Source: a virus. Taken from it: 32,028 nt of DNA. Position numbers and translations under genes: made by a program. Positions 1 through 31,978 of the stretch are shown here, in pieces; position 1 is the stretch's first letter; each line of letters opens with the position of its first letter. Location of the stretch: the UHGV virus genome UHGV-0115055; one strand, given 5' to 3'. The notes under the pieces are model-generated. The model saw only the letters and a list, made by a program, of their open reading frames with translations. It was not told where the DNA came from and ran no database searches.

Positions 1-49
1 TACAATGCGGGTTTGAGCGGCATAAATTACCACTGAAAGCCCTTAAACG

Positions 50-1063: not shown

Positions 1064-1178
1064 CAGAAAACCCTCCGAGTGGTGTGTTTTTTGGCGACTA
1101 CTAATCGCTTTTTTCGTGGTGGCTGAAATTTAGCCACCAATAGTAGGCACTTGTGATGAATATATTCACGATGAATTG

Positions 1179-1868: not shown

Positions 1869-1878
1869 GGAGAACCGT

Positions 1879-2546: not shown

Positions 2547-2609
2547 ATAATTAACCAGAGTTTTTAACGCACTTAATCGTGCGGAGCTTCTTTTTGCCTG
2601 GAGAAAGTC

Positions 2610-2834
2610 ATGCATACAGTTTCTGAAAATCAGTGCGGTAAATACGCATTACTGCTGCAACAGGCCAGAACCGAAGCACAGGCCGACGCTGCGACGCGCT
2701 TTTCTTCTCATCTTGACGCCATGATTCGCCACATCACAAAGGCGGAGTTATCCCGCGTGGAGATAGTTGAGCTGCTCAGTCAGGAGTCGGAAAAATTTCA
2801 CAATATCGGATTGTCTCGCGGGGAGGTGCTTTGA
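2610..2834 (+). CDS. hypothetical early protein (P2 orf80 position)
   Basis: 74 aa ORF in the early operon; start overlaps neighbouring genes in operon fashion. Confidence 0.6.
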
Positions 2835-3136
2835 TGTCCTGTTCTCGTTCGGTTGTATTACTGAATAACGCCTTAAAAATCGCCGTTATGAAAAATGGTG
2901 ATTTGTCTCTTATTCAACTTGGTCTTGATAAAGAAAAACGCGAAATAACTGAGTCTGTTATCGCGATTTATCAGAACGAATTAAATCTCCTGTCTGATGT
3001 GGTCAATTTACTTGTTAAACGCGCTGTATTTCACAAGAAAATCTCCTCCGTGGATGAACTGACAAAATTAACGACAGAAATTGCCAGCTATTGCGCTGAT
3101 GAATTTAAAAAACTTAACGACAAAAGGAGCTGGTAA
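2831..3136 (+). CDS. hypothetical early protein (P2 orf81 position)
   Basis: 101 aa; ATGA overlap with the upstream ORF stop, indicating translational coupling. Confidence 0.6.
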
Positions 3137-3360
3137 TGCCGGACAACGTAGATTTTATTCAGGAACAACAGGCTGAATTACTGGAGCGTCAGATTAACGC
3201 GGCAAGGGTAAAACATTGCGGTGCTTCTGCGCTGGTTTGCGAAGAGTGTGACGCGCCAATACCTGCTGCCCGTCGTGCGGCTTATCCGTCAGCCACGCGT
3301 TGTGTTTCCTGTCAGTCAGTCTTTGAAGCAAAAAACAAACATTACCGGAGAACGGCATGA
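3136..3360 (+). CDS. TraR/DksA-family C4 zinc-finger protein (P2 orf82 position)
   Basis: 74 aa with CxxC-x17-CxxC arrangement (CEECDAP...CVSCQ), typical of TraR/DksA-type zinc fingers. Confidence 0.75.
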   Translation: MPDNVDFIQEQQAELLERQINAARVKHCGASALVCEECDAPIPAARRAAYPSATRCVSCQSVFEAKNKHYRRTA

Positions 3361-3632
3361 GTATTCGTATTGAAATTGGCGAACGTTATGTCGTTACCAG
3401 TGACAGCTTTCAGTTTATTCTCCACGAGAAAAAGAGAGCGGAAAGCGGTAAAAACGCCGGTCAGGAATGGCTGGCGGTGGTTGGTTATTACCCGAAATTA
3501 AGCCAGCTCGTTTCCGGCCTGATGCATCACGATATTCTGACCGGAAGCGCAAAATCTTTTGCTGATTTAAACGCGCAGGTTGAGCAACTCAGCAGGCGTT
3601 GTTCAGAGGCTTTTGGCTCACATGGACGTTAA
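3357..3632 (+). CDS. hypothetical early protein (P2 orf83 position)
   Basis: 91 aa ORF immediately upstream of A, overlapping its start. Confidence 0.6.
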   Translation: MSIRIEIGERYVVTSDSFQFILHEKKRAESGKNAGQEWLAVVGYYPKLSQLVSGLMHHDILTGSAKSFADLNAQVEQLSRRCSEAFGSHGR

Positions 3633-5907: not shown

Positions 5908-6210
5908 TGACAAAGATTCACAAAGTAAAGCTGCACGCAAGATATTTCAACCTTGTGCTGGAGGGAAAAGAAACGCACAGAATTTAGGGGGATAGCCGTT
6001 ATCATGTGTATGAAGCACTTGAAATGTATCTGCATCACTTGGGAGTGTGTCAACGGGGAATTTCCATCTATGTGATTTTTTGAGAGCAATGCAGTGAAGA
6101 TAAAGATACTTATTATAAATCAATGTGATAGATGGTGCCTCGCAAACGTAAATGATAGTTTTGAAGCTTCAGGGCTGATGTCGTTCATAAGACTATGTTT
6201 ACGCTATCAT

Positions 6211-6241
6211 TTATGATAAAAATAATTAATTTTTATCATAA
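6211..6241. promoter_or_regulatory. 31-bp perfect palindrome (13-bp arms TTATGATAAAAAT / ATTTTTATCATAA, 5-bp spacer AATTA) immediately upstream of the island 1 nuclease-like gene; candidate operator
   Basis: Read directly from sequence; lies 17-23 bp upstream of the likely start codons (6258/6264). Confidence 0.5.
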
Positions 6242-6257
6242 AGATTCAACAGAGGAT

Positions 6258-7769
6258 ATGTTGATGAATCAACTAAAATCAATGAATATCAATAAGTTAC
6301 TTTTGGATGTTGATAACCCTCGTTTCCCGACGTCAGCAGAAAATCAGCGTGATGCTATTGCCAAGATGCTTGACATGCAGTACGACCGCATTTATCGCTT
6401 GGCTAAAGATATTGCTTCGAAAGGTTTAGATCCGTCTGAAAACATATTAGTTTATCCTAGTGAAGAGGAATCTGGCTTTTTCGTCGTTGCTGAAGGTAAT
6501 CGTCGAGTTACAGCCCTTAAACTTTTACACTCTCCTAGACTTGCACCAACAGAAAAAGCACGGAAAGCTTTTGAAAAACTTAAGATTACTCAGCTTAAAG
6601 ATATTAATGTTATAGATAACTGCGTTCTTTTTGACGATGATGAATATGAGCATTGGGTCAATTTAAAGCATACTGGTCAAAATGCTGGAGTTGGAAGAGT
6701 TGAATGGACTGCAACAGAAAAAGCACGACATCTGGCTAGGATGGGTAAGCAGTCATTTGGTAATCAAATACTTACATTTATAGAGTTCAATACTGATTTA
6801 TATAAAGAGATAATTGCTAAAAAAAGACTTTTAAAAATCACAAACATCACGCGTCTTTTTGGTGATTTAAAGGTGAGGGATTATTTTAATTTAAAAAGCA
6901 TTAATGGAGTTCTATACTCATATCAGCCTTATGAACGTTTTTGTGCACAATTAAAAAATATTTTAGATGTAATGATTGAAGAGGATGATAAAGGTAAGGC
7001 TTGTTTTACTGTTAATAGGATTCGTAGCCAAGATGACAGGGTTACATTTATTATTGAACAAAAAATAAAACCTTCAGAATCTCTTTTAGATAAGCCGTGG
7101 AGTTTACTGGAGCCTAAATCTTTTCTTACAGAGAAAAAACATGATTCTATTGACAAGAATGATGCATCTGTGAGTGTAAAGAAAGTAGGTCTTTCAGAAG
7201 GTGATGCCTTAAAGAATACAGGTGTGGATAAACAGGAAGATGATTATTCTAGACATGTAGGCACAGAAGAGAGTAAATCTAAAGTTTCGGGCACGGAACA
7301 GAATAAAAACAAGGGAAAAACTCCTCCTAAAGTAGATCGTAATGTGTTGGTGCCATCTTATGTGAAATTTAATTTTAGAGGGCATAAGAAATGCTCTAGA
7401 ATATTTAATGAGCTTAAGTCGCATCTGACATTTGATAACACCCCTAATGCTATCTCAATATTGTTGAGAATATTTATAGATCTCTCTGTAAGCACTTTTG
7501 TTGAAGAAAACAAGTTACAATTTAAGGAACCACATAGAACTCCAGGGCTTCATGATAAGGTTAAAATGTGTGCTAATTTCCTTCGGGAAAATAAAAAGAT
7601 GACGGGGAGTCAATGTACGGCTGTAATAACTTTCTCGAGCCAAATAACTAAACATGATGGTTCATTGCAGCAGTATGTACATAACCCACACTTAATTCCC
7701 TCAAAAGAGGCTGTCAACACTGAGTGGGATAACTTTGAGTTGTTATTAAGCCTTATTTGGAGTGAGTGA
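6258..7769 (+). CDS. ParB/Srx-like N-terminal domain protein (putative nuclease or NTP-dependent DNA-binding effector), cargo gene
   Basis: Track ORF 6195-7769 (524 aa); likely start at ATG 6258 or 6264 (GAGGA at 6252-6256; the palindrome would otherwise be inside the coding region). N-terminus has ParB-box-like motifs: LLLDVDNPRFP (like the ParB ...NP.QPR motif) and VVAEGNRRVTALKLL (like GxRRxxA). A K/E/S-rich low-complexity linker near 7100-7350 precedes an uncharacterised C-terminal domain. AT-rich codon usage unlike the backbone. Confidence 0.7.
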   Translation: MLMNQLKSMNINKLLLDVDNPRFPTSAENQRDAIAKMLDMQYDRIYRLAKDIASKGLDPSENILVYPSEEESGFFVVAEGNRRVTALKLLHSPRLAPTEKARKAFEKLKITQLKDINVIDNCVLFDDDEYEHWVNLKHTGQNAGVGRVEWTATEKARHLARMGKQSFGNQILTFIEFNTDLYKEIIAKKRLLKITNITRLFGDLKVRDYFNLKSINGVLYSYQPYERFCAQLKNILDVMIEEDDKGKACFTVNRIRSQDDRVTFIIEQKIKPSESLLDKPWSLLEPKSFLTEKKHDSIDKNDASVSVKKVGLSEGDALKNTGVDKQEDDYSRHVGTEESKSKVSGTEQNKNKGKTPPKVDRNVLVPSYVKFNFRGHKKCSRIFNELKSHLTFDNTPNAISILLRIFIDLSVSTFVEENKLQFKEPHRTPGLHDKVKMCANFLRENKKMTGSQCTAVITFSSQITKHDGSLQQYVHNPHLIPSKEAVNTEWDNFELLLSLIWSE

Positions 7770-7838
7770 GATTTGTCTACATCTGGACATGGATGTCCAG
7801 AAACTGATAAACTACAAAATCAGGAATGAGAGGGATTT

Positions 7839-8723
7839 ATGAAATTTTATACTCCATTAAGATACCCCGGCGGGAAAGGTAAGTTATCTTACTTTTTAAA
7901 AGATGTTATTGAAAAAAACTCGTTGAATGATGGAGCATATGCAGAACCTTACGCTGGTGGTGCAGGGGTGGCTTTAGAATTATTATTGGAAGAGTATGTC
8001 CGTAAAATCTATATAAATGATGCAGATTTTGCTGTTTATTCTTTTTGGTCATCTGTTGTTAGTGATACTGATGAGCTTTGCCGACTTATTAGCCGAGCAA
8101 AGATAGATATGGATGAATGGTCTTTTCATCGCTATGTTATTTCGAATCCTTCTGAGTTTACTAAGCTTGAGGTTGGCTTTGCTGCGTTTTTCTTAAATAG
8201 AACAAATCGTTCAGGTATTCTCAAGGCGGGGGTTATAGGCGGGAAATCACAAAATGGAAAATGGAAAATGGATGTTCGCTTTAACAGGGCGGATTTAATT
8301 TCAAGAATTGAGAAGATAGCAAATTATAATCAAAGAATAGTAGTAACTAATCTGGATGCTTTGGATTTTCTTGATGCCTTGAATTTTATGGATAATATGG
8401 GAAAGGTGGATAAAAATAAAATTCTTTTGTATTTGGATCCTCCTTACTATATTAAAGGGCAAGGGCTTTACAGGAATTTTTATGAGCATGATGACCATGT
8501 ATTGGTTATGAAGAAACTCACAGAAATTAATTTCCCAAATTGGCTTGTTTCTTATGATAACGCTAAAGAAATTAAAGATATTTATAATGGATTTCCGCAA
8601 GTTGAGTATTCATTGCAATATACAGCGCATCTCAAAAAATCTGGAGAGGAAGTGATGATTTTTTCTCCTGAAATAATTATTCCTAATACCCTGAAAGGGG
8701 TCTCAATGCCAACTTGCGCCTGA
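7839..8723 (+). CDS. D12-class (Dam-like) N6-adenine DNA methyltransferase, cargo gene
   Basis: 294 aa; N-terminal YPGGKGKL (Dam family GGK motif), AdoMet-binding motif I AEPYAGGAGV, catalytic motif IV LDPPYY. RBS GAGAGG upstream. AT-rich. Confidence 0.88.
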   Translation: MKFYTPLRYPGGKGKLSYFLKDVIEKNSLNDGAYAEPYAGGAGVALELLLEEYVRKIYINDADFAVYSFWSSVVSDTDELCRLISRAKIDMDEWSFHRYVISNPSEFTKLEVGFAAFFLNRTNRSGILKAGVIGGKSQNGKWKMDVRFNRADLISRIEKIANYNQRIVVTNLDALDFLDALNFMDNMGKVDKNKILLYLDPPYYIKGQGLYRNFYEHDDHVLVMKKLTEINFPNWLVSYDNAKEIKDIYNGFPQVEYSLQYTAHLKKSGEEVMIFSPEIIIPNTLKGVSMPTCA

Positions 8724-8870
8724 TTTTACTTATTTTTTGTCAGTAAGTAATTAGTTTGGTGCATTTATTTGCATTCATTTTTAAATGCCAGTTCTGGCAT
8801 CTAACATCAGTGCTGGCGCATTCTAACCATTACTGCTGCACTGCATTTAAAGCCCTGCATGAAGCGGGCG

Positions 8871-8889
8871 GGCGAGGCGGGGAAAGCAC
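8871..8889. other. cos: cos site, candidate 19-nt cohesive end GGCGAGGCGGGGAAAGCAC
   Basis: GC-rich 19-mer located where P2 cos lies (between accessory region and Q); sequence matches my recollection of the P2 cohesive end, not verified against a reference. Confidence 0.6.
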
Positions 8890-9029
8890 TGCGCGCTGGC
8901 GGTGGTGCTGATTTTATTTTTTCAGCGTCTGAGCGCGTCGTGATGGCGTTTAGATTGTTCGCCGGGGCGTTGGTGTGTCTGCGGGCTGTTTTGTGCGGTG
9001 GTGAGCGTGTGAGGGCGTGATGGCGGGTT

Positions 9030-9054
9030 GTAAAAAAGCCGCCCGCAGGCGGCG
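9030..9054 (-). terminator. rho-independent terminator downstream of Q (minus strand)
   Basis: Minus-strand hairpin GCCGCCTGCGGGCGGC followed by a TTTTTT run (plus strand shows AAAAAA 9032-9037 then stem 9038-9053) right after the Q stop codon. Confidence 0.55.
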
Positions 9055-9058
9055 ATGT

Positions 9059-10093
9059 TCAGCCGTTGTCAGTGTCCAGTGAGTAGTTTTTAAAGCGGAT
9101 GACCTCCTGACCGAGCCAGCCGTTTATTTCCCGAATCCTGTCCTGTAACGGGATTAGCTCATTGCGGACAAAGACCTTTGCCACTTTCTCAATATCGCCC
9201 AGTGACCCGACGTTCTCCGGCTTGCCACCCATCAACTGAAAGGGGATGCGGTGTGCGTCCAGCAGGTCAGCGGCGCTGGCTTTTTTGATATTAAAAAAAT
9301 CGTCCTTCGTCGCCACTTCACTGAGCGGGATAATTTTAATGCCGTCGGCTTTCCCCTGCGGGGCATAGAGAAACAGGTTTTTAAAGTTGTTGCGGCCTTT
9401 CGACTTCACCATGTTTTCGCGAAGCATTTCGATATCGTTGCGATCCTGCACGGCATCGGTAACGTACATGATGTATCCGGCATGTGCGCCGTTTTCGTAA
9501 TACTTGCGGCGGAACAGCGTGGCCGACTCATTCAGCCAGGCAGAGTTAAGGGCGCTGAGATATTCCGGCAGGCCGTACAGCTCCTGATTAATATCCGGCT
9601 CCAGCAGGTGAAACACGGAGCCGGGCGTGAAAGGTGTCGGCTCGTTGAAGGACGGCACCCACCAGTAAACATCCTCCTCCACGCCACGACGGGTATATTT
9701 GGCCGGTGAGGTTTCCAGTCTGATGACCTTACCGGTGGTGCTGTAACGCTTTTCCAGAAACGCATTACCGAACACCAGAAAATCCAGCACAAAGCGGCTG
9801 AAATCCTGCTGGGAAAGCCACGGATGCGGGATAAACGTTGAGGCCAGAATATTACGTTTGACGTAAATCGGTGAGCTGTGATGCACGGCAGCACGCAGGC
9901 TTTTTGCCAGACCGGTAAAGCTGACCGGTGGCTCATACCATCTGCCGTTACTGATGCATTCGACGTAATCCAGAATGTCACGGCGGTCGAGTACCGGCAC
10001 CGGCTCGCCAAAGGTGAATGCCTCCATTTTCGGGGCGCTGGCGGTCATTGTTTTTGCCGCTGGTCGCGGTGTTTTCCCTTTTTTCTTGCTCAT
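9059..10093 (-). CDS. Q: portal (capsid vertex) protein
   Basis: 344 aa as in P2 Q; adjacent to cos and divergent from the O-N-M-L capsid operon. Confidence 0.93.
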   Translation of the reverse strand: MSKKKGKTPRPAAKTMTASAPKMEAFTFGEPVPVLDRRDILDYVECISNGRWYEPPVSFTGLAKSLRAAVHHSSPIYVKRNILASTFIPHPWLSQQDFSRFVLDFLVFGNAFLEKRYSTTGKVIRLETSPAKYTRRGVEEDVYWWVPSFNEPTPFTPGSVFHLLEPDINQELYGLPEYLSALNSAWLNESATLFRRKYYENGAHAGYIMYVTDAVQDRNDIEMLRENMVKSKGRNNFKNLFLYAPQGKADGIKIIPLSEVATKDDFFNIKKASAADLLDAHRIPFQLMGGKPENVGSLGDIEKVAKVFVRNELIPLQDRIREINGWLGQEVIRFKNYSLDTDNG

Positions 10094-11895
10094 CAGTAAA
10101 ACTCCAGAATGGTGGATGTCAGCGGGGTGCTGATACCCGCGGTGAGTGGCTCATTTAACAGGGCATGCATGGTCGCCCAGGCGAGGTCGGCGTGGCTGGC
10201 TTCCTCGCTGCGGCTGGCCTCATAGGTGGCGCTGCGTCCGCTGCTGGTCATGGTCTTGCGGATAGCCATAAACGAGCTGGTGATGTCGGTGGCGCTGACG
10301 TCATATTCCAGACAGCCACGGCGAATAACGTCTTTTGCCTTGAGCACCATTGCGGTTTTCATTTCCGGCGTGTAGCGGATGTCGCGCGCGGCGGGATAGA
10401 ACGAGCGCACGAGCTGGAACACGCCGACACCGAGGCCGGTGGCATCAATACCGATGTATTCGACGTTGTATTTTTCGGTGAGTTTGCGGATGGATTCAGC
10501 CTGAGTGGCAAAGTCCATGCCTTTCCACTGGTGACGCTCAAGGATCCTGAATTTGCCACCGGCCACCACCGGCGGTGCCAGTACCACGCATCCGGCGCTG
10601 TCGCCACGGTGTGACGGATCGTAACCAATCCATACCGGGCGTGAGCCGAACGGATTGGCGGCAAACGGCGCATAGTCTTCCCATTCTTCCAGCGTGTCGA
10701 CCATGCAGCGTTGCAGCTCCTCGAACGGGAACACCGACGCCTTGTCGTCAACAAATTCACACATGAACAGGTTTTTAAAATCGTCGGCGCTGTTTTCACG
10801 TTTGAGCTGCTCAATGTCGAACAGTGTGCAGCCACCTTTCAGGGCGTCCTCAATGGTGACAATCTGCCGCCACTGGCCGTCCGCACAGAGAAGACCTCCG
10901 GCAAGGGCGTTATGACTGACGTCGATTTCCACGCGTTCGGCGGCGCTGGCGCGTCCCCGGTTGAACAGTTCACCCGACCAGAACGGGTAGGCGTCGTGCG
11001 CCAGTGTGGACGGGGTGGAGAAATAGGTCGAGCGCAGGTGACTCTGTGAGGCCATACCTGATGCCACCTTACGCAGTACCTGAAAATTCGGGATCCAGAA
11101 AATCTCATCGACGTACAGGTCGCCGTTATGGCTCTGCGCGGTGTTGGAGTTGGTGCCGAGAAAAATCAGTTTTGCGCCGTTATTGCCCAGGACAATCGGG
11201 TCACCGGTCAGGTCAACGTCAACCAGCCGGGCAAAGGCGATGATGTATTCGCGGAACACATACGCCTGCGTTTTACTGGCCGACAGAAAAATCTGGTTAT
11301 GACCGGTTTTCAGGGCGCGCAGCAGCGCCTCGCGGGAAAAATAAAACGTCGCGCCAATCTGGCGGGATTTCAGGATATCGCGGATGCGGTGCTCAAGCCC
11401 GGCGCGATACCAGTGCAACTGATAGTCGAAAGACTGCTCAAAGAAAATCTGCTCCAGCTTTTCGATGGCCTCGTCACTGAAAAAATTCTTTTTCGGTTTG
11501 CGACGCCCGCCTTTGTTGCGGTTAGCGACGTTCGGATTAAGGTCTGCCTCGTTGCCGGTCTGACTGTAGCGGTTGACCCGCGCCAGTCGTTCAATCTGGC
11601 GTCCCAGCAGGTCAATTTCCTTGAAGTCACCGCCGGTTTTCTGCGGTTTGATGATGAGCTGGGTCAGCCGCGCTTCCAGACTCATTTCGACACGGCTGAT
11701 GGGGGCAACGCTGTCCCAGCCGTCGCGCTGTTTCCAGCTCTGCACCGTCGGGCGTTTCATCTGCAACATGGCGGCAATCTGCGGCACGGAAAACCCCTGC
11801 CAGTACAGCAGCGCCGCCTGACGACGCGGATCGTGTAAAAGAGTGGTGTCTGTGGTGATGGTCATGAATACCTCGCCGTGATGAATACACGGCAA
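10093..11895 (-). CDS. P: terminase large subunit (ATPase)
   Basis: 600 aa, position and size of P2 P; overlaps Q start by one base (coupled). Confidence 0.92.
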   Translation of the reverse strand: MPCIHHGEVFMTITTDTTLLHDPRRQAALLYWQGFSVPQIAAMLQMKRPTVQSWKQRDGWDSVAPISRVEMSLEARLTQLIIKPQKTGGDFKEIDLLGRQIERLARVNRYSQTGNEADLNPNVANRNKGGRRKPKKNFFSDEAIEKLEQIFFEQSFDYQLHWYRAGLEHRIRDILKSRQIGATFYFSREALLRALKTGHNQIFLSASKTQAYVFREYIIAFARLVDVDLTGDPIVLGNNGAKLIFLGTNSNTAQSHNGDLYVDEIFWIPNFQVLRKVASGMASQSHLRSTYFSTPSTLAHDAYPFWSGELFNRGRASAAERVEIDVSHNALAGGLLCADGQWRQIVTIEDALKGGCTLFDIEQLKRENSADDFKNLFMCEFVDDKASVFPFEELQRCMVDTLEEWEDYAPFAANPFGSRPVWIGYDPSHRGDSAGCVVLAPPVVAGGKFRILERHQWKGMDFATQAESIRKLTEKYNVEYIGIDATGLGVGVFQLVRSFYPAARDIRYTPEMKTAMVLKAKDVIRRGCLEYDVSATDITSSFMAIRKTMTSSGRSATYEASRSEEASHADLAWATMHALLNEPLTAGISTPLTSTILEFY

Positions 11896-12038
11896 GGCTA
11901 CTGAGTCGCGCCCCGCGATTCGCTAAGGTGCTGTTGTGTCAGTGATAAGCCATCCGGGACTGATGGCGGAGGATGCGCATCGTCGGGAAACTGATGCCGA
12001 CATGTGACTCCTCTAATCACTATTCAGGACTCCTGACA

Positions 12039-12893
12039 ATGGCAAAAAAAGTCTCAAAATTCTTTCGTATCGGCGTTGAGGGTGACACCTGTGACGGGCG
12101 TGTCATCAGTGCGCAGGATATTCAGGAAATGGCCGAAACCTTTGACCCGCGTGTCTATGGGTGCCGCATTAACCTGGAACATCTGCGCGGCATCCTGCCA
12201 GACGGTATTTTTAAGCGTTATGGCGATGTGGCCGAACTGAAGGCCGAAAAGATTGACGACGATTCGGCGCTGAAAGGCAAATGGGCGCTGTTTGCGAAAA
12301 TCACCCCGACCGATGACCTTATCGCGATGAACAAGGCCGCGCAGAAGGTCTATACCTCAATGGAAATTCAGCCGAATTTTGCCAACACCGGCAAATGTTA
12401 TCTGGTGGGTCTGGCCGTCACCGATGACCCGGCAAGCCTCGGCACGGAATACCTGGAATTCTGCCGCACGGCAAAACACAACCCCCTGAACCGCTTCAAA
12501 TTAAGCCCTGAAAACCTGATTTCAGTGGCAACGCCCGTTGAGCTGGAATTTGAAGACCTGCCTGAAACCGTGTTCACCGCCCTGACCGAAAAGGTGAAAT
12601 CCATTTTTGGCCGCAAACAGGCCAGCGATGACGCCCGTCTGAATGACGTGCATGAAGCGGTGACCGCTGTTGCTGAACATGTGCAGGAAAAACTGAGCGC
12701 CACTGAGCAGCGCCTCGCTGAGATGGAAAACGCCTTTTCCGCACTTAAGCAGGAGGTGACTGACAGGGCGGATGAAACCAGCCAGGCATTCACCCGCCTG
12801 AAAAACAGTCTCGATAACACCGAAAGTCTGACCCAGCAGCGCCGCAGCAAGGCCACCGGCGGTGGCGGTGACGCCCTGATGACGAACTGCTGA
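12039..12893 (+). CDS. O: capsid scaffolding protein
   Basis: 284 aa from ATG at 12039 (track ORF extends upstream to 11973); coiled-coil-like C-terminus; directly upstream of major capsid gene. Confidence 0.88.
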   Translation: MAKKVSKFFRIGVEGDTCDGRVISAQDIQEMAETFDPRVYGCRINLEHLRGILPDGIFKRYGDVAELKAEKIDDDSALKGKWALFAKITPTDDLIAMNKAAQKVYTSMEIQPNFANTGKCYLVGLAVTDDPASLGTEYLEFCRTAKHNPLNRFKLSPENLISVATPVELEFEDLPETVFTALTEKVKSIFGRKQASDDARLNDVHEAVTAVAEHVQEKLSATEQRLAEMENAFSALKQEVTDRADETSQAFTRLKNSLDNTESLTQQRRSKATGGGGDALMTNC

Positions 12894-20725: not shown

Positions 20726-23347
20726 ATGAGCACGAAATTTAAAACCGTTATCACTACTGCCGGAGCCGCAAAGCTGGCAGCCGCCACTGTCCCCGGCGGG
20801 AAAAAAGTAACTCTGTCTGCAATGGCCGTGGGTGACGGTAATGGCAAATTGCCGGTGCCGGATGCTGGTCAGACGAAACTGGTGCATGAGGTCTGGCGTC
20901 ACGCCCTGAATAAAGTCAGCGTGGATAATAAGAATAAAAACTATATCGTGGCTGAACTGGTTGTACCGCCCGAAGTGGGCGGCTTCTGGATGCGTGAGCT
21001 TGGTTTGTATGACGATGCCGGAACACTGATTGCGGTCGCCAACATGGCGGAAAGCTATAAGCCAGAACTGGCTGAAGGCTCCGGACGTGCGCAGACCTGC
21101 CGCATGGTTGTTATTGTCAGCAACGTGTCGTGCGTTGAGCTGAGTATTGATGCCAGCACAGTGATGGCGACGCAGGATTACGTCGATGACAAAATCGCAG
21201 AGCATGAGCAGTCCCGCCGCCATCCTGACGCCACGCTGACAGAAAAAGGTTTTACTCAGTTAAGCAGTGCAACAAACAGCACCAGTGAAAAGCAGGCTGC
21301 AACGCCAAAGGCAGTAAAAGCAGCCTATGACAATGCTGAGAAACGTCTGCAGAAAGACCAGAACGGTGGCGATATTCCAGATAAGGGCGCTTTTCTGGAC
21401 AATATTGGCGTTACCAGCCTGACGTTTATGAAACACAATGGAATGATTCCAACCACTGACAATCTTGACTCCTATGGCCCAGAAGAAAAATATCTTGGAA
21501 CGTGGTCATGTCCGTCACAATCCACTGCAAAACCAGAGTCTGGTTACCCTGAAGATAAAGGCAATGGGGTTCTGGAAGTATTCAATGCTGGTCGCTTTCA
21601 CTGCACACAACGCTACACCACCCGAACCGGTAATATTTACATTCGGATGCTTGATGCAGAATGGAACCCAGCCAGTCCAACATGGAGTGCATGGAGAGTT
21701 ATTACAAGCGGGACTCGACCATTAAGCACGTCAATTGACCTGAATTCTTTAGGTGGTGCGGAACACCTGGGAATATGGCGCAATAGCAGTACATCAATAG
21801 CCTCATTTGACCGTCATTTCCCGGAGGAAGGGAGTTTTGGGCAGGGTATTCTGGAAGTCTTTGAAGGCGGTCTGTATGGGAGGATGCAACGTTACACCAC
21901 CCGTAGTGGGACTATGTACATTCGCGGACTGACTGCCTCATGGGATGCAGAAAATCCACAATGGGAGGACTGGATTGCTGTTGGGTATCAGTCCACGGGA
22001 TGGACTTATTCAGGGGATCTTGATGACCTTTTAAAGCCTGGTATTTATAGCGTTACGAAACAGGCCACAAATGCACCTGTCACCGACTCTAAAGATCTTG
22101 CTGTTGGCTCAATAGTTGAAGTGAAAAAACGTTGTGATATTGAATCGTATATCCAGACATACACGACTGTTTCAGCAACGGATGCCTATAAAAACCGGAC
22201 ATTTCAGCGAACCCGCGCCAGCGGTGAAACTGACTGGGGGGAATGGGCGGAAGTATACAACTCAAAATCATTACTCACTAAATTAGGTGTCGGCGGTGTT
22301 ACCGACAGGTTATCCAGTCTGGACTGGCAGACCTACGACTTTATACCGGGCAGCATGATAACTGTCAGGCTTTCAGATATGACCAATATTCCCGATGGGA
22401 TGGAATGGGGCGTCATTGATACTAACCTGATAAATATCACTGTTGGCCCCAGTGAAGGCGGAGGTGTCGCCCGTTCAATGCATGTATGGCGCAGCACTTC
22501 AAACAAAACCAACTATCGTTTTTTTACAGTCCGCTTATATGGCAATCCTGGGGAGCGTAGCTTCAATATTCGTCGGCTACCAATTATCGACGAAGCCCAG
22601 ACATGGGAGGCAAAACAGACATTCAGTGCAGGCCTTTCTGGTGAACTGTCCGGCAATGCGGCTACAGCAACAAAGCTGAAAACGGCAAGGACAATTAACG
22701 GCGTAAAATTTGACGGCTCGGCAAATATTGAAGCGTTTCCGCCTGGTGTTCCGCTGCCGTGGCCATCAGATACACCACCTGCAGGCTATGCAATCATGCA
22801 GGGGCAGACGTTTGATAAGGCAGCATATCCGAAACTGGCTATAGCCTATCCTTCTGGTGTTATTCCTGATATGCGCGGCTGGACAATCAAGGGCAAACCC
22901 GCCAGTGGGCGTGCTGTATTGTCACAGGAACAGGACGGGATTAAATCGCATACTCACAGTGCCAGTGCGTCAAATACGGATTTGGGAACGAAAACAACCA
23001 GTTCGTTTGATTACGGCACGAAGACGGTCAGTACGTTTAATCATGGCACAAAATCAACGAACAATACGGGCAATCATACGCACACTGTCGGTGGTGTTTA
23101 TGGCGGCGACTCTGTCGGTGGAAAACAGCGTGTACAGGCTTCAGGAAACAATCAGGTGTCCAGCACCGCCGGAGCGCACGCCCATACGGTGGATATTGGT
23201 CAGCATAACCACACTGTAGGTATTGGTGCCCATGCACACACTGTGGCCCTGGGTGCGCACGGACACACCATCACGGTAAATGCTACGGGTAATACCGAAA
23301 ACACCGTCAAAAACATCGCATTTAACTATATTGTGAGGCTTGCATAA
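20726..23347 (+). CDS. H: tail fibre protein H (mosaic: conserved N-terminal anchor, divergent receptor-binding distal part)
   Basis: 873 aa, longer than P2 H (669 aa). N-terminal ~160 aa are P2-H-like; the remainder has an internal duplicated ~50 aa domain and a C-terminal array of H-x-H-T repeats; GC content drops in the distal part. Confidence 0.9.
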
Positions 23348-23925
23348 TGGCTTTCAGAATGAGTGCAGAAGCACAAACTATCCGCGTTTTCAATTTACTT
23401 GATGGAACCAATGAATTTATTGGTGAAAGTGACGCATATATTCCGCCGCATACAGGTCTGCCTGCAAACAGTACAGATATTGCACCGCCTGATATTCCTG
23501 CTGGTTATGCAGCCGTTTTCAATGCAGATGAAATGAAATGGGAACTGATGGAAGACCATCGCGGAAAGACCGTCTATGAAACGAAAACGGGAGCAGCCAT
23601 TTATATTTCTGAACTTGGCGTATTACCTCCAGACGTGACAGCCATTTCCCCGGATGGGGATTATCAGAAATGGAACGGCAATGCGTGGGTGAATGATGAG
23701 AATGCAGAGCGTGATGCGCTTGTCAGAGCGGCTGACTCTCAGAAGAAAGAGCTGATTGCATATGCAGGTGAAATTATTGCCACTCTGCAGGATGCTGTCG
23801 ATTTAGATATGGCTACCGAGGAAGAAAAGTTAAGCCTGACACACTGGAAAAAATACCGTGTGCTACTGAATCGCGTTCAGCCGGAAAATGCCCCGGATAT
23901 TGAATGGCCGAAAATGCCGCAATAA
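23347..23925 (+). CDS. G: tail fibre assembly chaperone G
   Basis: 192 aa directly downstream of H with ATAATG overlap; position of P2 G. Confidence 0.85.
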
Positions 23926-23959
23926 ATCGTATTAGAACTGGTGTGAGATTAGTCATCTA

Positions 23960-24001
23960 TGGCACAGAGTAAAACCTAATCTGACAGTCCACTCTGTGCC
24001 A
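23960..24001. repeat. 11-bp perfect inverted repeat (TGGCACAGAGT ... ACTCTGTGCCA) with 20-nt loop immediately after gene G
   Basis: Read from sequence; possible stem-loop at the end of the H-G transcript or a boundary element of the cargo island. Confidence 0.4.
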
Positions 24002-24492
24002 GCAGCAATTGCGTGGCCAAAGGAAACACTGCCAGCACAATCAGGTATTGATATGTCGATGTAGTCCTGAATGGCTGGCAACTCACCTAACCTAATGAGC
24101 TCCCGTTCAACCGGAACATAAGGTCAATTCTGTTGTATGATTTTTCCCTTTTTGAAAGAATAATAGCGATAAATGACGAATTTTTGGAACCCTGCTTGTT
24201 GCTGAAGATACGTTGTCACAATGGAAGAACGTGACTTACATCGAAGTGATGGGAGTATCCGTCAAGATCTAATACACGAAAATAGAAGTGAAAAGGTACG
24301 CTGCGAGGGCGCTCGCCTGTCCGCTCTGTCTGCGAAGAAATAATTTATTTTAGGCCACCCAAGCGGCTTGTTTAAGATTAGTACTCTTATCTAGAAAACT
24401 CGTAACTGACTTGAATGTATGGTAACATGATAATAACAAGGTTCGAACATCCGCCAATGCAATATACTTAGAACATATAAATTGAATCTGAC

Positions 24493-25374
24493 ATGGATAA
24501 AAATAAATTGGTTAAATTTTCACTAGTCGAAAACGCCTTGGATTCTATTGAGCTAGGTTTGGAGTATTTTTACGAAGCAAAAAAAGAATTCACGCCACGT
24601 AAATATAAACAATGCCTAATTAATATGTTTCATGGCTCGGAGTTAATCCTGAAAGAAATATTGAGTAGGATAAATATTATACTCATATTCGACAAAAACT
24701 CTTTATTTAAAATTTGCAAAGATCCTTTAAGTCCTACTGGGGATGAGTTGTATAAATTAAAATCAATAGATATTAATAGCTTATGCGATGAGGTTGTGAA
24801 GCATTATCCGGACGAGTTTAAAGGAAAGCTTAATATTGTCAAGGGCCTAGCTAGAGAAAGAAACAAGATACAGCATTTTGCAATCGAAATATCACCAGAG
24901 ATATTATCAAGGTTACTCTCAAGTCTTTACATTGATGTTTTTAAGCCATCCTTTAAAATAATTTTATCTGAGCTTGATTATGTTAATCAATACAATTCGC
25001 TGATTGAAAGGCAGATTATAGGTGCTGAAAAGACATTTCTTAAAATACAAGGTGATACTGATAACTATTTAGCTCTTTGTCCAAAGTGCGAGAACCATTC
25101 TCACTTTATATTGTACAAAGGTACGGGTTACCCTGTTGAGACCTATTGTATTTGCTGTGATTATAAAAATACAGATATTGACATATCAGATTATCTGGTA
25201 TGTCCTGAATGCGGATTCCCGTCATTGATATTTGATGAAAAAAATAATGCAGGAGTCTGCCTCAACGAGAAGTGTTACTATGGAATACAAGGTGGATTCG
25301 TAGAAATGGAACCATGTGAAAATTGTGATGGCTTTATTATTGAAGGTTCATGCCCAGAATGTGATACGGATTGA
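24493..25374 (+). CDS. cargo protein: putative HEPN-like domain fused to three C-terminal Cys4 zinc-ribbon units; candidate single-gene anti-phage (abortive infection) effector
   Basis: 293 aa in a strongly AT-rich island at the P2 Z/fun position. R-N-x3-H motif (ARERNKIQHF) typical of HEPN RNases in a predicted helical N-terminal region; C-terminus has paired Cys motifs CPKC..CICC, CPEC..CLNEKC, CENC..CPEC. Possible extended -10 promoter (TGaTAATAA around 24428-24436) upstream. Confidence 0.7.
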   Translation: MDKNKLVKFSLVENALDSIELGLEYFYEAKKEFTPRKYKQCLINMFHGSELILKEILSRINIILIFDKNSLFKICKDPLSPTGDELYKLKSIDINSLCDEVVKHYPDEFKGKLNIVKGLARERNKIQHFAIEISPEILSRLLSSLYIDVFKPSFKIILSELDYVNQYNSLIERQIIGAEKTFLKIQGDTDNYLALCPKCENHSHFILYKGTGYPVETYCICCDYKNTDIDISDYLVCPECGFPSLIFDEKNNAGVCLNEKCYYGIQGGFVEMEPCENCDGFIIEGSCPECDTD

Positions 25375-25552
25375 GATTACTCGACGATTGGTGCAACTGC
25401 ATGCTTGCAAAACTCTATGGTGCTAACGGAGTCAATTACTGAATTGTTGTTACCCATTGACGGATAGATTTCGGTTGCTTAACTGTGAATGGAGTAGCAT
25501 GACAGAGTTTTTTACCAGTCCGATTAGCTTCTATCAAATAGCAGTTCGGACA

Positions 25553-25579
25553 GGCGGGCTGATTGCCCGCCTTTTCTTT
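25553..25579 (+). terminator. rho-independent terminator at the right end of cargo island 2
   Basis: GC stem GGCGGGC / GCCCGCC with loop TGATT followed by TTTTCTTT; located between the cargo gene and the FI late operon. Confidence 0.6.
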
Positions 25580-25675
25580 ATCTGTTGTTTCATCCCCTGA
25601 CCAGCCAGGTCAAATAGCGTCTCATGCTCTGCACAACAGAAAATAGTTGCACCCATTAACCACGGAGTTAAACGG

Positions 25676-26866
25676 ATGAGTGACTATCATCACGGCGTGC
25701 AGGTGCTGGAGATTAACGACGGCACCCGCGTCATTTCCACCGTATCAACCGCCATTGTCGGCATGGTCTGCACAGCCAGCGATGCGGATGCGGAAACCTT
25801 CCCCCTCAATAAACCGGTGCTGATTACCAATGTGCAGAGCGCAATTGCAAAGGCTGGTAAAAAAGGCACGCTGGCGGCATCGTTGCAGGCCATCGCCGAC
25901 CAGTCAAAACCGGTCACCGTTGTCGTGCGTGTGGAAGACGGCACCGGCGACGACGAGGAAACGAAACTCGCGCAGACCGTTTCCAATATCATCGGCACCA
26001 CCGACGAAAACGGTCAGTACACCGGACTGAAAGCCCTGCTGGCGGCGGAGTCGGTAACCGGTGTTAAACCGCGTATTCTCGGTGTGCCGGGGCTGGATAC
26101 CAAAGAGGTGGCTGTTGCACTGGCATCCGTCTGTCAGAAGCTGCGCGCTTTCGGGTATATCAGCGCATGGGGCTGTAAAACCATTTCCGAGGTGAAAGCC
26201 TACCGTCAGAATTTCAGCCAGCGTGAGCTGATGGTCATCTGGCCGGATTTCCTCGCATGGGATACGGTCACCAGTACCACCGCCACCGCGTATGCCACCG
26301 CCCGTGCGCTGGGTCTGCGTGCCAGAATCGACCAAGAGCAGGGCTGGCATAAAACGCTGTCCAACGTCGGGGTAAACGGTGTTACCGGCATCAGTGCGTC
26401 CGTATTCTGGGATTTGCAGGAGTCCAGCACCGATGCTGACCTGCTGAACGAGTCAGGTGTCACAACGCTGATTCGCCGTGACGGTTTCCGCTTCTGGGGT
26501 AACCGTACCTGCTCTGATGACCCGCTGTTCCTCTTTGAAAACTACACCCGCACCGCGCAGGTGCTGGCCGACACGATGGCTGAGGCGCACATGTGGGCGG
26601 TGGACAAGCCCATCACCGCAACGCTGATTCGCGACATCGTTGACGGCATCAATGCCAAATTCCGAGAGCTGAAAACAAACGGCTATATCGTGGATGCGAC
26701 CTGCTGGTTCAGTGAAGAATCCAACGATGCGGAAACCCTCAAGGCCGGAAAACTGTATATCGACTACGACTATACCCCGGTGCCTCCTCTTGAAAACCTG
26801 ACCCTGCGCCAGCGTATTACTGATAAATACCTGGCAAATCTGGTCACCTCGGTTAACAGCAATTAA
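25676..26866 (+). CDS. FI: contractile tail sheath protein
   Basis: 396 aa, P2 FI size and position. Confidence 0.93.
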   Translation: MSDYHHGVQVLEINDGTRVISTVSTAIVGMVCTASDADAETFPLNKPVLITNVQSAIAKAGKKGTLAASLQAIADQSKPVTVVVRVEDGTGDDEETKLAQTVSNIIGTTDENGQYTGLKALLAAESVTGVKPRILGVPGLDTKEVAVALASVCQKLRAFGYISAWGCKTISEVKAYRQNFSQRELMVIWPDFLAWDTVTSTTATAYATARALGLRARIDQEQGWHKTLSNVGVNGVTGISASVFWDLQESSTDADLLNESGVTTLIRRDGFRFWGNRTCSDDPLFLFENYTRTAQVLADTMAEAHMWAVDKPITATLIRDIVDGINAKFRELKTNGYIVDATCWFSEESNDAETLKAGKLYIDYDYTPVPPLENLTLRQRITDKYLANLVTSVNSN

Positions 26867-30335: not shown

Positions 30336-30815
30336 ATGATGCTCGCGTTAGGTATGTTTGTTTTTATGCGCCAGACGCTGCCACACCAGACCATGCAGCG
30401 TGAATCAGATTATCGCTGGCCGTCAAATTCCCGTATCGGTAAACGGGATGCCTACCAGTTTCTCGGTGTGGGTGAGGAAAACATGACGCTTGCCGGTGTG
30501 CTTTATCCCGAACTGACCGGCGGAAAGCTGACGATGACCACGCTCAGGCTGATGGCAGATGAAGGCCGGGCGTGGCCGTTGCTGGATGGCACTGGCATGA
30601 TTTACGGCATGTATGTCATCAGCAAGGTGAGTGAAACAGGGAGTATTTTCTTTGCAGACGGCACACCCCGGAAAATTGATTTTACGCTGTCGCTCACCCG
30701 CGTTGATGAATCACTGGCCGCGCTTTATGGCGATATCGGTAAACAGGCGGAATCGCTCATCGGTAAGGCTGGCAGTATGGCGACCAGATTCACGGGTATG
30801 ACGGGGGCGGGATAA
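30336..30815 (+). CDS. U: tail protein U
   Basis: 159 aa, P2 U size and position. Confidence 0.9.
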   Translation: MMLALGMFVFMRQTLPHQTMQRESDYRWPSNSRIGKRDAYQFLGVGEENMTLAGVLYPELTGGKLTMTTLRLMADEGRAWPLLDGTGMIYGMYVISKVSETGSIFFADGTPRKIDFTLSLTRVDESLAALYGDIGKQAESLIGKAGSMATRFTGMTGAG

Positions 30816-31978
30816 TGCTGGATACGCTGACATTTGATGCAGGCAGTACGCTGACGCCGGATTACATGCTGATGCTCGACAGCAGGGATATTACCGGCAA
30901 TATCAGCGACCGTCTGATGAGCATGACCCTGACGGATAACCGGGGCTTTGAGGCTGACCAGCTTGATATTGAACTGAACGATGCCGACGGGCAGGTCGAG
31001 CTGCCGGTTCGTGGCGCTGTCCTGACGGTGTATATCGGCTGGAAAGGTTTTGCCCTGGTGTGCAAAGGGAAATTTACCGTTGATGAGGTTGAACACCGGG
31101 GCGCACCGGATGTGGTCACCATCCGCGCCCGGAGTGCAGATTTTCGCGGGACGCTCAATTCCCGCCGTGAAGGCTCCTGGCATGACACCACGCTCGGTGC
31201 GATTGTTGAGGCGATAGCCTCCCGTAACAGGCTGGAAGCCAGTGTCGCGCCGTCACTGGCAGGAATTAAAATCCCGCACATCGACCAGTCGCAGGAGTCT
31301 GATGCGAAATTCCTGACCCGTCTTGCAGAACGCAACGGCGGTGAGGTGTCGGTAAAAATGGGAAAACTGTTGTTTCTCAAAGCGGGGCAGGGGGTGACGG
31401 CCAGCGGTAAAAAAATCCCGCAGATTACCATCACCCGCAGCGACGGCGACCGTCATCATTTTGCGATTGCTGACCGTGGAGCCTATACCGGCGTAACGGC
31501 AAAGTGGTTACACACCAAAGACCCGAAACCACAAAAGCAGAAGGTAAAACTGAAACGCAAAAAGAAAGAAAAACATCTGCGCGCACTGGAGCACCCGAAA
31601 GCAAAACCGGTCAGGCAGAAGAAAGCGCCTAAAGTACCGGAGGCGCGCGAAGGTGAATACATGGTCGGGGAAGCTGACAACGTTTTTGCCCTGACCACGG
31701 TATATGCCACGAAAGCGCAGGCCATGCGCGCCGCTCAGGCGAAGTGGGATAAGCTGCAACGGGGTGTAGCGGAGTTCTCCATCAGCCTGGCTACCGGTCG
31801 GGCAGATATTTACACGGAAACACCGGTCAAAGTGTCAGGCTTTAAGCGTGTCATAGACGAGCAGGACTGGACAATCACTAAGGTGACACATTTTCTGAAT
31901 AATAGCGGCTTCACGACGTCCTTAGAGCTTGAGGTAAGGCTTTCTGATGTGGAGTACGAAACCGAAGATGATGAGTGA
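30815..31978 (+). CDS. D: tail protein D (late control/tail gene D)
   Basis: 387 aa, P2 D size and position; start overlaps the U stop. Confidence 0.9.
   Translation: MLDTLTFDAGSTLTPDYMLMLDSRDITGNISDRLMSMTLTDNRGFEADQLDIELNDADGQVELPVRGAVLTVYIGWKGFALVCKGKFTVDEVEHRGAPDVVTIRARSADFRGTLNSRREGSWHDTTLGAIVEAIASRNRLEASVAPSLAGIKIPHIDQSQESDAKFLTRLAERNGGEVSVKMGKLLFLKAGQGVTASGKKIPQITITRSDGDRHHFAIADRGAYTGVTAKWLHTKDPKPQKQKVKLKRKKKEKHLRALEHPKAKPVRQKKAPKVPEAREGEYMVGEADNVFALTTVYATKAQAMRAAQAKWDKLQRGVAEFSISLATGRADIYTETPVKVSGFKRVIDEQDWTITKVTHFLNNSGFTTSLELEVRLSDVEYETEDDE

What the first reader, a model, noticed from the sequence alone, without database searches (positions are those of the whole stretch)
23926..25675. 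Second cargo island at the P2 Z/fun hotspot: single HEPN-like/zinc-ribbon gene
Between tail fibre assembly gene G and the sheath gene FI, where P2 encodes Z/fun (a T5 exclusion gene), this prophage has a strongly AT-rich ~1.7 kb insert with one 293 aa gene, its own promoter-like sequence and a terminator. The protein has an R-N-x3-H motif characteristic of HEPN ribonucleases (ARERNKIQHF) in a predicted helical N-terminal region, then three consecutive Cys4 zinc-ribbon-like units. HEPN RNases are common abortive-infection effectors and toxins; a HEPN fused to a triple zinc ribbon as a stand-alone gene is not an architecture I recognise as a named system.
Basis: partly seen in the sequence, partly recalled or inferred. 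Interest (0 to 1): 0.8.

Follow-up and report, generated by a model that had tools for sequence, protein, structure and literature searches.

The report
Prophage HEPN–zinc-ribbon anti-phage gene
A P2-like E. coli prophage carries, at a known cargo slot in its tail genes, a single gene for a predicted RNA-cutting (HEPN) enzyme fused to three zinc ribbons; this design already has validated anti-phage relatives (HEC-08/DS-38), so it is a new member of a known kind, not a new system.

Summary
A 293-aa gene (24493-25374, +) sits in an AT-rich insert between tail-fibre assembly gene G and sheath gene FI, where phage P2 carries fun(Z).

- **Gene status:** dN/dS is about 0.06, so it is a real, constrained gene.
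- **Corrections:** only 24007-25547 is foreign DNA. The terminator belongs to the conserved P2 backbone. The promoter call is weak.
- **Not unnamed:** the family is homologous end to end to PADLOC candidate PDC-S64 (hhalign 99%). It is more distantly related to HEC-08 (= DS-38), a validated E. coli defence that loses function when its H128 is mutated.
- **Context:** homologues occur as single integron cassettes and near known defence genes. On 267 mostly conjugative plasmids, in three examined cases, the homologue takes the pifA slot directly after genuine pifC.

Most likely it is a stand-alone, prophage-expressed RNase that blocks competing phages, with the strongly acidic zinc module acting as sensor or regulator. 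Trigger, RNA target and phenotype are untested.

The parts
23926..24006 (+). Left backbone segment after gene G. It contains a perfect 11-bp inverted repeat (23960-23970 / 23991-24001) forming a hairpin with no U-tract, at the position of the V-operon terminator in P2.
   Evidence: Shared at 84-94% with over 1000 E. coli prophages and 94 phage records. Aligned with Wphi and THO-015 but not with P2. Repeat I4. Fold -19.1 kcal/mol, z -2.4. P2 annotation.
24007..24492 (+). Foreign non-coding leader of 486 bp, GC 0.38-0.45, origin unknown. It always travels with the gene in E. coli P2-like prophages but is not shared with any homologue locus elsewhere.
   Evidence: No match in E. coli complete genomes, phages or plasmids, and one 30-nt probe found nothing in viral contigs. 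Homology to other loci starts at 24499. 100% identical in L020-L024. No Rfam hit. Only ORFs of 42 aa or less.
24406..24434 (+). Weak sigma-70-like promoter candidate (CTGACT-17-GATAAT), 59 nt upstream of the ATG.
   Evidence: 9/12 consensus match. The region has 13 matches against 6.3 +/- 2.2 expected in shuffles, most on the other strand or inside the gene. Not conserved with homologue loci.
24493..25374 (+). Gene for the 293-aa HEPN-triple zinc ribbon protein, identical to WP_137598284.1 'hypothetical protein [Escherichia coli]'.
24493..24987 (+). HEPN domain (residues 1-165): helix 1 at 11-32, helix 2 at 35-58, a family-specific insert at 59-113 holding the invariant FDKNSL (66-71), helix 3 at 114-128, helix 4 at 135-159.
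24640..24654 (+). E50-L-I-L-K54: the Ex3[KR] acidic motif of HEPN helix 2. E50 and K54 are invariant.
   Evidence: Motif definition in PMC3710099.
24859..24876 (+). R123-N-K-I-Q-H128: the Rx4H catalytic motif at the C-terminal end of helix 3. R, N, K, Q and H are invariant.
   Evidence: It aligns with RNRVVH (H128) of HEC-08. Position rule from PMC3710099.
24988..25062 (+). Linker with helix 170-185 joining the HEPN domain to the zinc module.
25063..25371 (+). Triple Cys4 zinc-ribbon module (residues 191-293), net charge -13.
   Evidence: Conserved Cys. Beta-hairpins in the model. The middle ribbon matches the TFIIB zinc ribbon (1pft E 0.0011; Pfam Zn_Ribbon_TF in 11 of 34 members). Charge.
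25375..25547 (+). Foreign 3' non-coding tail that co-travels with the gene in its closest homologues.
   Evidence: About 80% identical through 25536 in L001 and L012.
25548..25675 (+). Right backbone segment: an intrinsic terminator (stem 25552-25572, T-tract to about 25582), followed by the stretch that aligns with P2's annotated pF activator site and transcription start, ahead of FI.
   Evidence: P2 annotation.

Best explanation
This is a stand-alone, prophage-borne anti-phage (superinfection-exclusion or abortive-infection type) gene. It is carried as swappable cargo in the G/FI hotspot of an E. coli P2-like prophage, the slot that holds fun(Z) in P2. The protein is an N-terminal HEPN ribonuclease domain of the DUF3644 / EC042_2821-like clade, fused to a strongly acidic module of three Cys4 zinc ribbons. 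It belongs to the superfamily that includes PADLOC candidate PDC-S64 and the validated defence HEC-08 (= DS-38).

Proposed mechanism:
1. The gene is expressed in the lysogen from a promoter in its own leader (inferred).
2. The protein stays inactive, because no antitoxin gene is present (absence of a partner shown; latency inferred).
3. Infection by another phage is sensed through the zinc-ribbon module, more probably by binding a protein than nucleic acid given its charge (inferred).
4. Two HEPN domains then pair their Rx4H motifs into an active metal-independent RNase that cuts phage or host RNA and stops the infection (inferred from HEPN biochemistry and from HEC-08's loss of defence when H128 is mutated).

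Shown here: fold, motifs, homology, single-gene mobility, purifying selection, hotspot location. Inferred: expression, trigger, RNA target, phenotype.

For: Family: PADLOC PDC-S64 E 2.6e-22. hhalign of the family against a bona fide PDC-S64 member (P0069, 2.8e-96 to the model) gives 99.0% probability, E 6.6e-18, over 241 columns spanning both domains. Against HEC-08 it gives 82%, E 1e-5, over 214 columns with the catalytic motifs aligned. HEC-08 defends E. coli and its H128 mutant does not. The same protein was validated as DS-38, with 4-5.7 log protection against Bas19 and Bas25.

Single-gene unit: neighbours differ in every context. In L008 it is one integron cassette between VCR-like repeats.

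Defence context: the same prophage carries a complete PD-Lambda-5 system at the other hotspot. Homologues lie near Avs4-like, EcoRII R-M, type IV REase-like, Abi and REase genes. On plasmids, in three examined cases, the homologue sits 1 nt after a 1089-bp gene; in two of them that gene was shown to be genuine pifC (81-83% identical to F PifC), the slot F gives to pifA.

Selection and mobility: dN/dS 0.066. The whole insert is 100% identical in backbones whose FI genes differ by up to 3.7%, matching the reported rapid swapping of P2 defence loci.
Against: There is no experimental data for this protein or its close subfamily. PDC-S64 itself is untested. The PADLOC match covers only the N-terminal half of the PDC-S64 model, and the HEC-08 model match is weak (E 3e-4), so the validated relative is distant (20% identity). 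The promoter is only a weak consensus match, there is no clear Shine-Dalgarno, and the leader is of unknown origin, so expression in the lysogen is unproven. Dimerisation, RNase activity and the role of the zinc module are inferred. An acidic zinc module could equally be a structural or autoinhibitory element.
Confidence: 0.65

Rival explanations
1. The gene acts mainly against other mobile elements (conjugative plasmids, satellites) or as a competition or stabilisation factor for its carrier, rather than against lytic phages. The HEPN RNase would destroy RNAs needed by the rival element, such as replication primers.
For: Other HEPN single-gene systems (Ishtar) clear plasmid RP4. The family is abundant on conjugative plasmids, 253 of 267, and occurs in an ICE, settings where inter-element competition matters.
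Against: Ishtar is not homologous (hhalign probability 3.6%) and lacks zinc ribbons. The validated relative HEC-08/DS-38 protects against phages. The pifA slot and the P2 fun(Z) slot are classical phage-exclusion positions.
Confidence: 0.12
2. The HEPN domain is not an RNase here. It would bind a nucleotide or ligand, or act on DNA, and the protein would be a regulator or sensor with some other output.
Against: Non-catalytic HEPN families have lost the Rx4-6H motif. Here R, N and H are invariant across 34 sequences, and an R[NDHK]xxxH motif (mostly RNxxxH) recurs in 94 distant relatives found by regex; the Ex3K residues are invariant within the 34-sequence family. In HEC-08 the motif histidine is required for defence. 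There is no other effector domain in 293 aa.
Confidence: 0.08
3. It is a toxin of an addiction (toxin-antitoxin) module that stabilises the prophage, or a phage-beneficial moron unrelated to immunity.
For: The closest structural matches include HepT toxins of HepT/MNT toxin-antitoxin pairs. AT-rich morons in tail-gene regions are not always defences (notes non-defence cargo in P2 hotspots).
Against: No antitoxin-like or MNT gene is adjacent in the window or in any of about 12 distinct contexts. The gene exists as a solitary integron cassette. It carries a large extra sensor-like module absent from HepT toxins.
Confidence: 0.06
4. It is a decaying or chance ORF in AT-rich junk DNA.
For: Weak translation and promoter signals. 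Annotated only as 'hypothetical protein'.
Against: dN/dS 0.066 at near-saturated dS. Full-length conservation in 33 clusters and 263 plasmid copies. Confident structure model.
Confidence: 0.01

Closest known systems
HEC-08 (Payne et al. 2024, bioRxiv 10.1101/2024.01.29.577857), the same protein as DS-38/'HEP2' (DefensePredictor, PMC13092281); E. coli WP_001313577.1 / WP_150698383.1, 366 aa
   Same: A single-gene system with an N-terminal DUF3644-type HEPN carrying RNxxxH (the histidine is H128 in both proteins) and a Cys-rich, strongly acidic C-terminal multi-zinc-finger module. Homology is detectable by sequence (BLASTP E 5e-5; hhalign 82%), with the catalytic motif and first ribbons aligned.
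   Different: Only 20% identity. HEC-08 is 73 aa longer and has 8 CxxC motifs against 6 here. It lacks the FDKNSL insert. It was found embedded in Hma systems rather than in a prophage hotspot. The HEC-08 HMM match is weak (E 3e-4). HEC-08 is experimentally validated and this protein is not.
PDC-S64 (PADLOC-DB v2 phage defence candidate, untested)
   Same: Best library match (E 2.6e-22). The family profile aligns to a genuine member across both the HEPN and zinc-ribbon regions at 99% probability. Same size class, and six CxxC motifs are typical.
   Different: The HMM match covers only profile positions 2-157 of 339. This subfamily has its own conserved insert (residues 59-113) and ribbon spacing. 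PDC-S64 was defined by embedding in BREX, DISARM or type I R-M systems, which is not the context here.
EC042_2821 / DUF3644 HEPN family (Anantharaman et al. 2013, PMC3710099)
   Same: Described as a HEPN with conserved Rx4-6H, fused to zinc-ribbon, REase or wHTH modules, in defence contexts. Distant relatives of this protein hit DUF3644 and show those alternative fusions.
   Different: The window protein itself does not reach any Pfam threshold, and only 3 of 34 members weakly hit PF05168 HEPN. Only the plasmid homologue weakly hits DUF3644, at E 0.0031.
PD-T7-4 (Vassallo et al. 2022)
   Same: It is figured next to DS-38 as having a Zn-finger domain, in the part of the paper that compares HEPN proteins, and it is an E. 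coli defence.
   Different: No PADLOC PD-T7-4 model matched the window protein even at E up to 10. Its Zn-finger domain is stated to be distinct from that of DS-38.
P2 Fun(Z) and F-plasmid PifA (positional analogues)
   Same: Fun(Z) occupies the same G/FI slot in P2 and blocks T5. PifA occupies the slot after pifC that this protein's plasmid homologues occupy. Both are classical single-protein phage-exclusion genes, from established knowledge.
   Different: No sequence similarity to Fun(Z). PifA is annotated in the F record as a 741-aa P-loop NTPase-fold protein, not a HEPN protein. Fun(Z) is on the opposite strand.
HepT/MNT type VII toxin-antitoxin HEPN toxins (e.g. SO_3166, 5yep)
   Different: No MNT antitoxin partner. 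An extra 130-aa linker plus zinc module. A 55-aa insert between helices 2 and 3.

Membership tests
HEPN superfamily | Four-helix up-and-down bundle core | tested here: met
HEPN superfamily | Rx4-6H motif at the end of helix 3, with a polar residue (N, D or H) right after R | tested here: met
   R123-N124-K-I-Q-H128 closes helix 114-128. R, N and H are invariant in 34 sequences. Rule from PMC3710099.
HEPN superfamily | Conserved acidic residue in helix 2 (Ex3[KR]) | tested here: met
   E50-x3-K54 is invariant and lies in helix 35-58.
HEPN superfamily | Metal-independent RNase activity, usually as a dimer | not testable with these tools
   Needs biochemistry, or at least a multimer structure prediction, which the tool does not offer.
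PDC-S64 (PADLOC candidate) | Significant match to the PDC-S64 HMM | tested here: inconclusive
   PDLC05059 E 2.6e-22, but only residues 7-174 against profile 2-157 of 339. PADLOC coverage cut-offs could not be applied.
PDC-S64 (PADLOC candidate) | Homology over both the HEPN and zinc-ribbon regions to a bona fide member | tested here: met
   hhalign of A1 against P0069 (PDC-S64 E 2.8e-96, full length): 99.0% probability, E 6.6e-18, query 7-287 to target 1-298.
PDC-S64 (PADLOC candidate) | Found embedded in BREX, DISARM or type I R-M loci (the basis of its discovery) | tested here: not met
   Here it lies in a prophage tail-gene hotspot. Homologues are in integrons, plasmids and prophage ends; one is beside, not inside, an EcoRII R-M.
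HEC-08 / DS-38 | [quoted passage not shown] | tested here: met
   Architecture as described. Motifs aligned. Cys and charge comparison.
HEC-08 / DS-38 | Close sequence membership (HMM match) | tested here: not met
   HEC-08 HMM E 3.1e-4, covering only residues 138-262. 20% identity. hhalign 82%. It is a distant homologue, not a member of that cluster.
HEC-08 / DS-38 | Anti-phage phenotype that depends on the Rx4H histidine | not testable with these tools
   Requires plaque assays with wild type and H128A.
HepT/MNT toxin-antitoxin | Adjacent MNT (nucleotidyltransferase) antitoxin gene | tested here: not met
   No partner ORF in the window or in any homologue locus.
Ishtar (anti-plasmid HEPN) | Homology to Ishtar family proteins | tested here: not met
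   hhalign probability 3.6% to WP_011133822.1. Ishtar has no Cys-rich C-terminus.
PD-T7-4 | Match to PADLOC PD-T7-4 models | tested here: not met
   Not among the hits at E up to 10.
P2 Fun(Z) | Sequence homology to Fun(Z) | tested here: not met
   BLASTP best E 3.3. Only the genomic slot is shared.

The most novel reading that the evidence does not exclude
The acidic triple zinc-ribbon may be a portable infection-sensor module that can be bolted onto different HEPN effectors. Here it is joined to a DUF3644-like HEPN; in P0048 it is joined to a DUF4145-like domain. It may hold the RNase off, for example as a pseudo-substrate, until a specific basic phage protein binds it. Because close homologues replace PifA directly behind PifC on hundreds of conjugative plasmids, the family could be an unrecognised second pif-type exclusion effector. 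Studying it could reveal a new trigger-recognition principle for single-protein HEPN defences.
Probability: 0.15. Interest if true: 0.6.

Novelty: new member of a known kind. Interest (0 to 1): 0.3.

Why it matters
The finding adds an uncharacterised, well-delimited subfamily to the HEPN-zinc-finger single-gene defences, whose trigger and RNA target are still unknown even for the validated members (HEC-08/DS-38). That subfamily comprises WP_137598284.1 and its relatives at 42% identity or more, with plasmid copies at 43-49%. It offers a compact 293-aa model with a confident structure prediction and clear mutational targets: R123, H128, E50, the twelve cysteines and the FDKNSL insert.

It also ties together three mobile 'defence marketplaces' carrying the same gene: the tail-gene hotspot of P2-like prophages, Vibrio-type chromosomal integrons, and the pif operon of IncF and IncI plasmids. 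This illustrates cassette swapping between diverged P2 backbones. For annotation, the gene should stop being called 'hypothetical protein'. It is not a new kind of system.

Tried and rejected
- **A conserved partner gene.** The genes of about 460 aa upstream in L001 and L002 are unrelated and have no Pfam or PADLOC hits. Rejected.
- **Relationship to Ishtar** (HEPN plus a beta-rich C-terminus, anti-plasmid). hhalign gives 3.6%. Rejected.
- **Homology to the cargo of other P2-like phages at this site.** Wphi orf44 and P2 Fun(Z) show none.
- **Origin of the 486-bp leader.** No match in E. coli complete genomes, phages or plasmids, and one 30-nt probe found nothing in viral contigs. No Rfam family. 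Unexplained.
- **Sequence-only search of the PDB.** It found only the TFIIB zinc ribbon; the HEPN assignment needed fold comparison.
- **BFVD viral fold search.** Nothing significant. The afdb50 library was unavailable.
- **Literature.** 'PDC-S64', 'WP_000253407' and pifC with HEPN returned nothing relevant. The 'Esos' integron HEPN system could not be compared because no sequence was held.
- **A wrong inference of mine, corrected.** I first inferred that the exact protein was absent from public data because the top hit was 87% identical. The exact look-up found it as WP_137598284.1.
Full report
**What is there.** The window is a P2-like prophage, running from the integrase at 50-1063 to gene D at 30815-31978. 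Between the tail-fibre assembly gene G (23347-23925, Caudo_TAP E 2.6e-40) and the sheath gene FI (25676-26866) lie 1,750 bp holding one substantial ORF: 24493-25374 (+), 293 aa. GC falls to 0.31-0.33 over the gene against 0.45-0.58 in the flanks. In phage P2 the same interval holds fun(Z), which blocks T5, flanked by the V-operon terminator and the pF activator site and promoter. In Wphi it holds an unrelated orf44, and in E. coli THO-015 it is almost empty. A 2026 preprint lists defence hotspots 'within the late genes' and tail genes of P2-like phages.

**Boundaries and signals.** Only 24007-25547 is foreign. 23926-24006 and 25548-25675 match hundreds of P2-like prophages. The right segment is conserved even in P2. 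The terminator is therefore backbone, not cargo. The left segment carries a perfect 11-bp inverted repeat without a U-tract. The proposed promoter (24406-24434) is a 9/12 match in a region where such matches are common, and no Shine-Dalgarno is visible. The 486-bp leader (24007-24492) matches nothing in any collection searched and is not shared with homologue loci, whose similarity starts at the start codon. It stays unexplained.

**The gene is real and constrained.** The exact protein is WP_137598284.1, 'hypothetical protein [Escherichia coli]', on 10 contigs. All 14 contigs read have the same G-gene-FI layout. The whole 1,750-bp interval is 100% identical in five of them, while the neighbouring FI differs by up to 44 substitutions. 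That indicates recent transfer of the module between diverged backbones. Against the closest diverged homologue (87% aa), dN/dS is 0.066 at dS about 0.97.

**Fold and motifs.** An alignment of 34 family sequences shows three sets of conserved residues:
- invariant R123, N124, K125, Q127 and H128;
- invariant E50 and K54;
- an invariant FDKNSL (66-71).

**It is a known architecture.** PADLOC matches the candidate PDC-S64 (E 2.6e-22, N-terminal half) and, weakly, HEC-08. PHROGs has a full-length family of unknown function (phrog_20819, 6e-80). An exhaustive profile search finds 537 representatives at E 1e-3 or better. Among the 94 distant representatives that my regex picked out for an R[NDHK]xxxH motif (mostly RNxxxH) followed by a CxxC, 76 have four or more CxxC after the motif, typically six. 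Others swap the C-terminus for REase-like or helicase modules, as described for the EC042_2821 / DUF3644 HEPN family in 2013. Profile-profile comparison with a genuine PDC-S64 member gives 99% probability over both domains. [quoted passage not shown] I took its sequence from the supplement. It aligns to the present family at 82% probability, with RNRVVH on RNKIQH and the first ribbons in register. The same protein, WP_001313577.1, was independently validated as DS-38 and figured next to PD-T7-4, whose Zn-finger domain is described as distinct, in the part of that paper that compares HEPN proteins. The claim that no named system has this design does not hold.

**Context elsewhere.**
- Neighbours differ in every locus, so there is no conserved partner.
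- In a Vibrio-type contig the homologue is a single integron cassette bracketed by VCR-like repeats.
- In Enterobacter it sits at a different P2-prophage site, next to ogr.
- In Providencia it lies between integrases near an Avs4-like gene.
- In Salmonella diarizonae it is in an ICE beside EcoRII R-M.
- In Serratia it is on a plasmid next to an Abi protein and a restriction endonuclease.

Unexpectedly, 267 plasmids, 253 of them conjugative, encode homologues at 43-49% identity, 263 of them full length. In IncF (Klebsiella) and IncI (E. coli) examples, the gene follows 1 nt after a gene 81-83% identical to F-plasmid PifC. A Salmonella plasmid has the same 1089-bp upstream gene at the same spacing, though I did not compare it with PifC. 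This is the arrangement F uses for pifA. From established knowledge, pifA is F's T7-exclusion gene. I found no paper that mentions both pifC and a HEPN gene. The same prophage also carries a complete PD-Lambda-5 system at its other hotspot.

**Mechanism.** Shown: a HEPN fold with an intact catalytic constellation, three zinc ribbons, single-gene mobility, purifying selection and defence-type contexts. Inferred:
1. Expression in the lysogen.
2. Latency without an antitoxin.
3. Activation by infection.
4. HEPN dimerisation into an RNase that halts infection.

One new clue concerns the zinc module. It is consistently very acidic (-13 here, family mean -11.8, HEC-08 -18), while the HEPN domain is about neutral. 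That argues against nucleic-acid binding and for protein recognition or autoinhibition. The same triple-ribbon module is also fused to a different N-terminal domain, weakly DUF4145-like, in P0048, which suggests a portable module.

**Verdict.** This is a new, untested member of a known kind: the HEPN-zinc-finger single-gene defences PDC-S64, HEC-08/DS-38 and, by analogy, PD-T7-4. It sits in a known P2 hotspot. Interest is modest at 0.3. Its value lies in being a compact model for an unsolved sensing mechanism, and in the link to the pif operon noticed along the way.

Noticed in passing
window 6195-7769 and 7839-8723 (+): The other cargo island, between replication gene A and portal gene Q, is a complete two-gene PD-Lambda-5 defence system: PD-Lambda-5_A E 9.5e-168 and PD-Lambda-5_B (a D12-class adenine methyltransferase) E 1.4e-121.
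   Followed up: partly
L014 5914-7873; L015 4923-6882; L019 2923-4882; F plasmid L017 12446-15761: On IncF, IncI and other enterobacterial plasmids a 289-aa homologue (44% identity, e.g. WP_000253407.1) sits 1 nt after a 1089-bp gene. In L014 and L015 that gene is 81-83% identical to F PifC; in L019 it was not compared. The homologue thus replaces pifA in the pif operon. 267 plasmids carry the homologue, 253 of them conjugative. No paper in the library mentions both pifC and a HEPN gene.
   Followed up: partly
L008 3459-4621 (whole locus 1-12492): The homologue is a solitary integron cassette. VCR-like repeats of about 125 nt bracket it (3459-3585 and 4495-4621), and at least 14 copies punctuate the array.
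   Followed up: yes
window 24007-24492: A 486-bp non-coding leader of intermediate GC travels with the gene in all E. coli copies at 100% identity, but it has no detectable relative in E. coli genomes, phages or plasmids, and none in homologue loci. One 30-nt probe found nothing in viral contigs. Its origin and function (promoter, regulator or remnant) are unknown.
   Followed up: partly
window 23926-25675 compared with L020-L024: The whole insert is 100% identical in five contigs, while the adjacent FI gene differs by 0-44 substitutions and the tail-fibre H genes differ in length. That is evidence of recent cassette exchange between diverged P2-like backbones.
   Followed up: yes
protein residues 191-293 (window 25063-25371); A1 alignment; HEC-08: The zinc-ribbon module is strongly acidic throughout the superfamily (window -13, family mean -11.8, HEC-08 -18, distant relatives mean -10.4), while the HEPN domain is about neutral.
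   Followed up: partly
P0048 (372 aa, metagenomic representative): The same triple zinc-ribbon module (E 7.9e-35 to profile positions 167-291) is fused to an unrelated N-terminal domain of about 245 aa with a weak DUF4145 (HEPN-type) hit at E 0.011. This suggests the ribbon module is portable between HEPN types.
   Followed up: partly
window 23960-24001: A perfect 11-bp inverted repeat (TGGCACAGAGT / ACTCTGTGCCA, 20-nt loop) lies in the conserved segment just after gene G. It is shared with Wphi and an E. coli prophage but not with P2, and it has no U-tract.
   Followed up: partly
L003 / L004 8001-8894: In Enterobacter P2-like prophages a 73%-identical homologue sits at a different site, at the prophage end next to ogr, while the G/FI interval there is short. 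The same gene therefore uses different P2 hotspots.
   Followed up: no
L005 2360-4987: Next to the Providencia homologue lies an 874-aa Avs4-like NTPase (PADLOC Avs4 E 4e-88, matching only profile 166-744 of 1570), flanked by two IS3-type transposase genes. It may be a truncated Avs.
   Followed up: no
window 23800-23888: A sub-threshold partial Rfam match to IS009 (28.9 bits against a gathering score of 117) inside the 3' end of gene G. It is probably meaningless.
   Followed up: no
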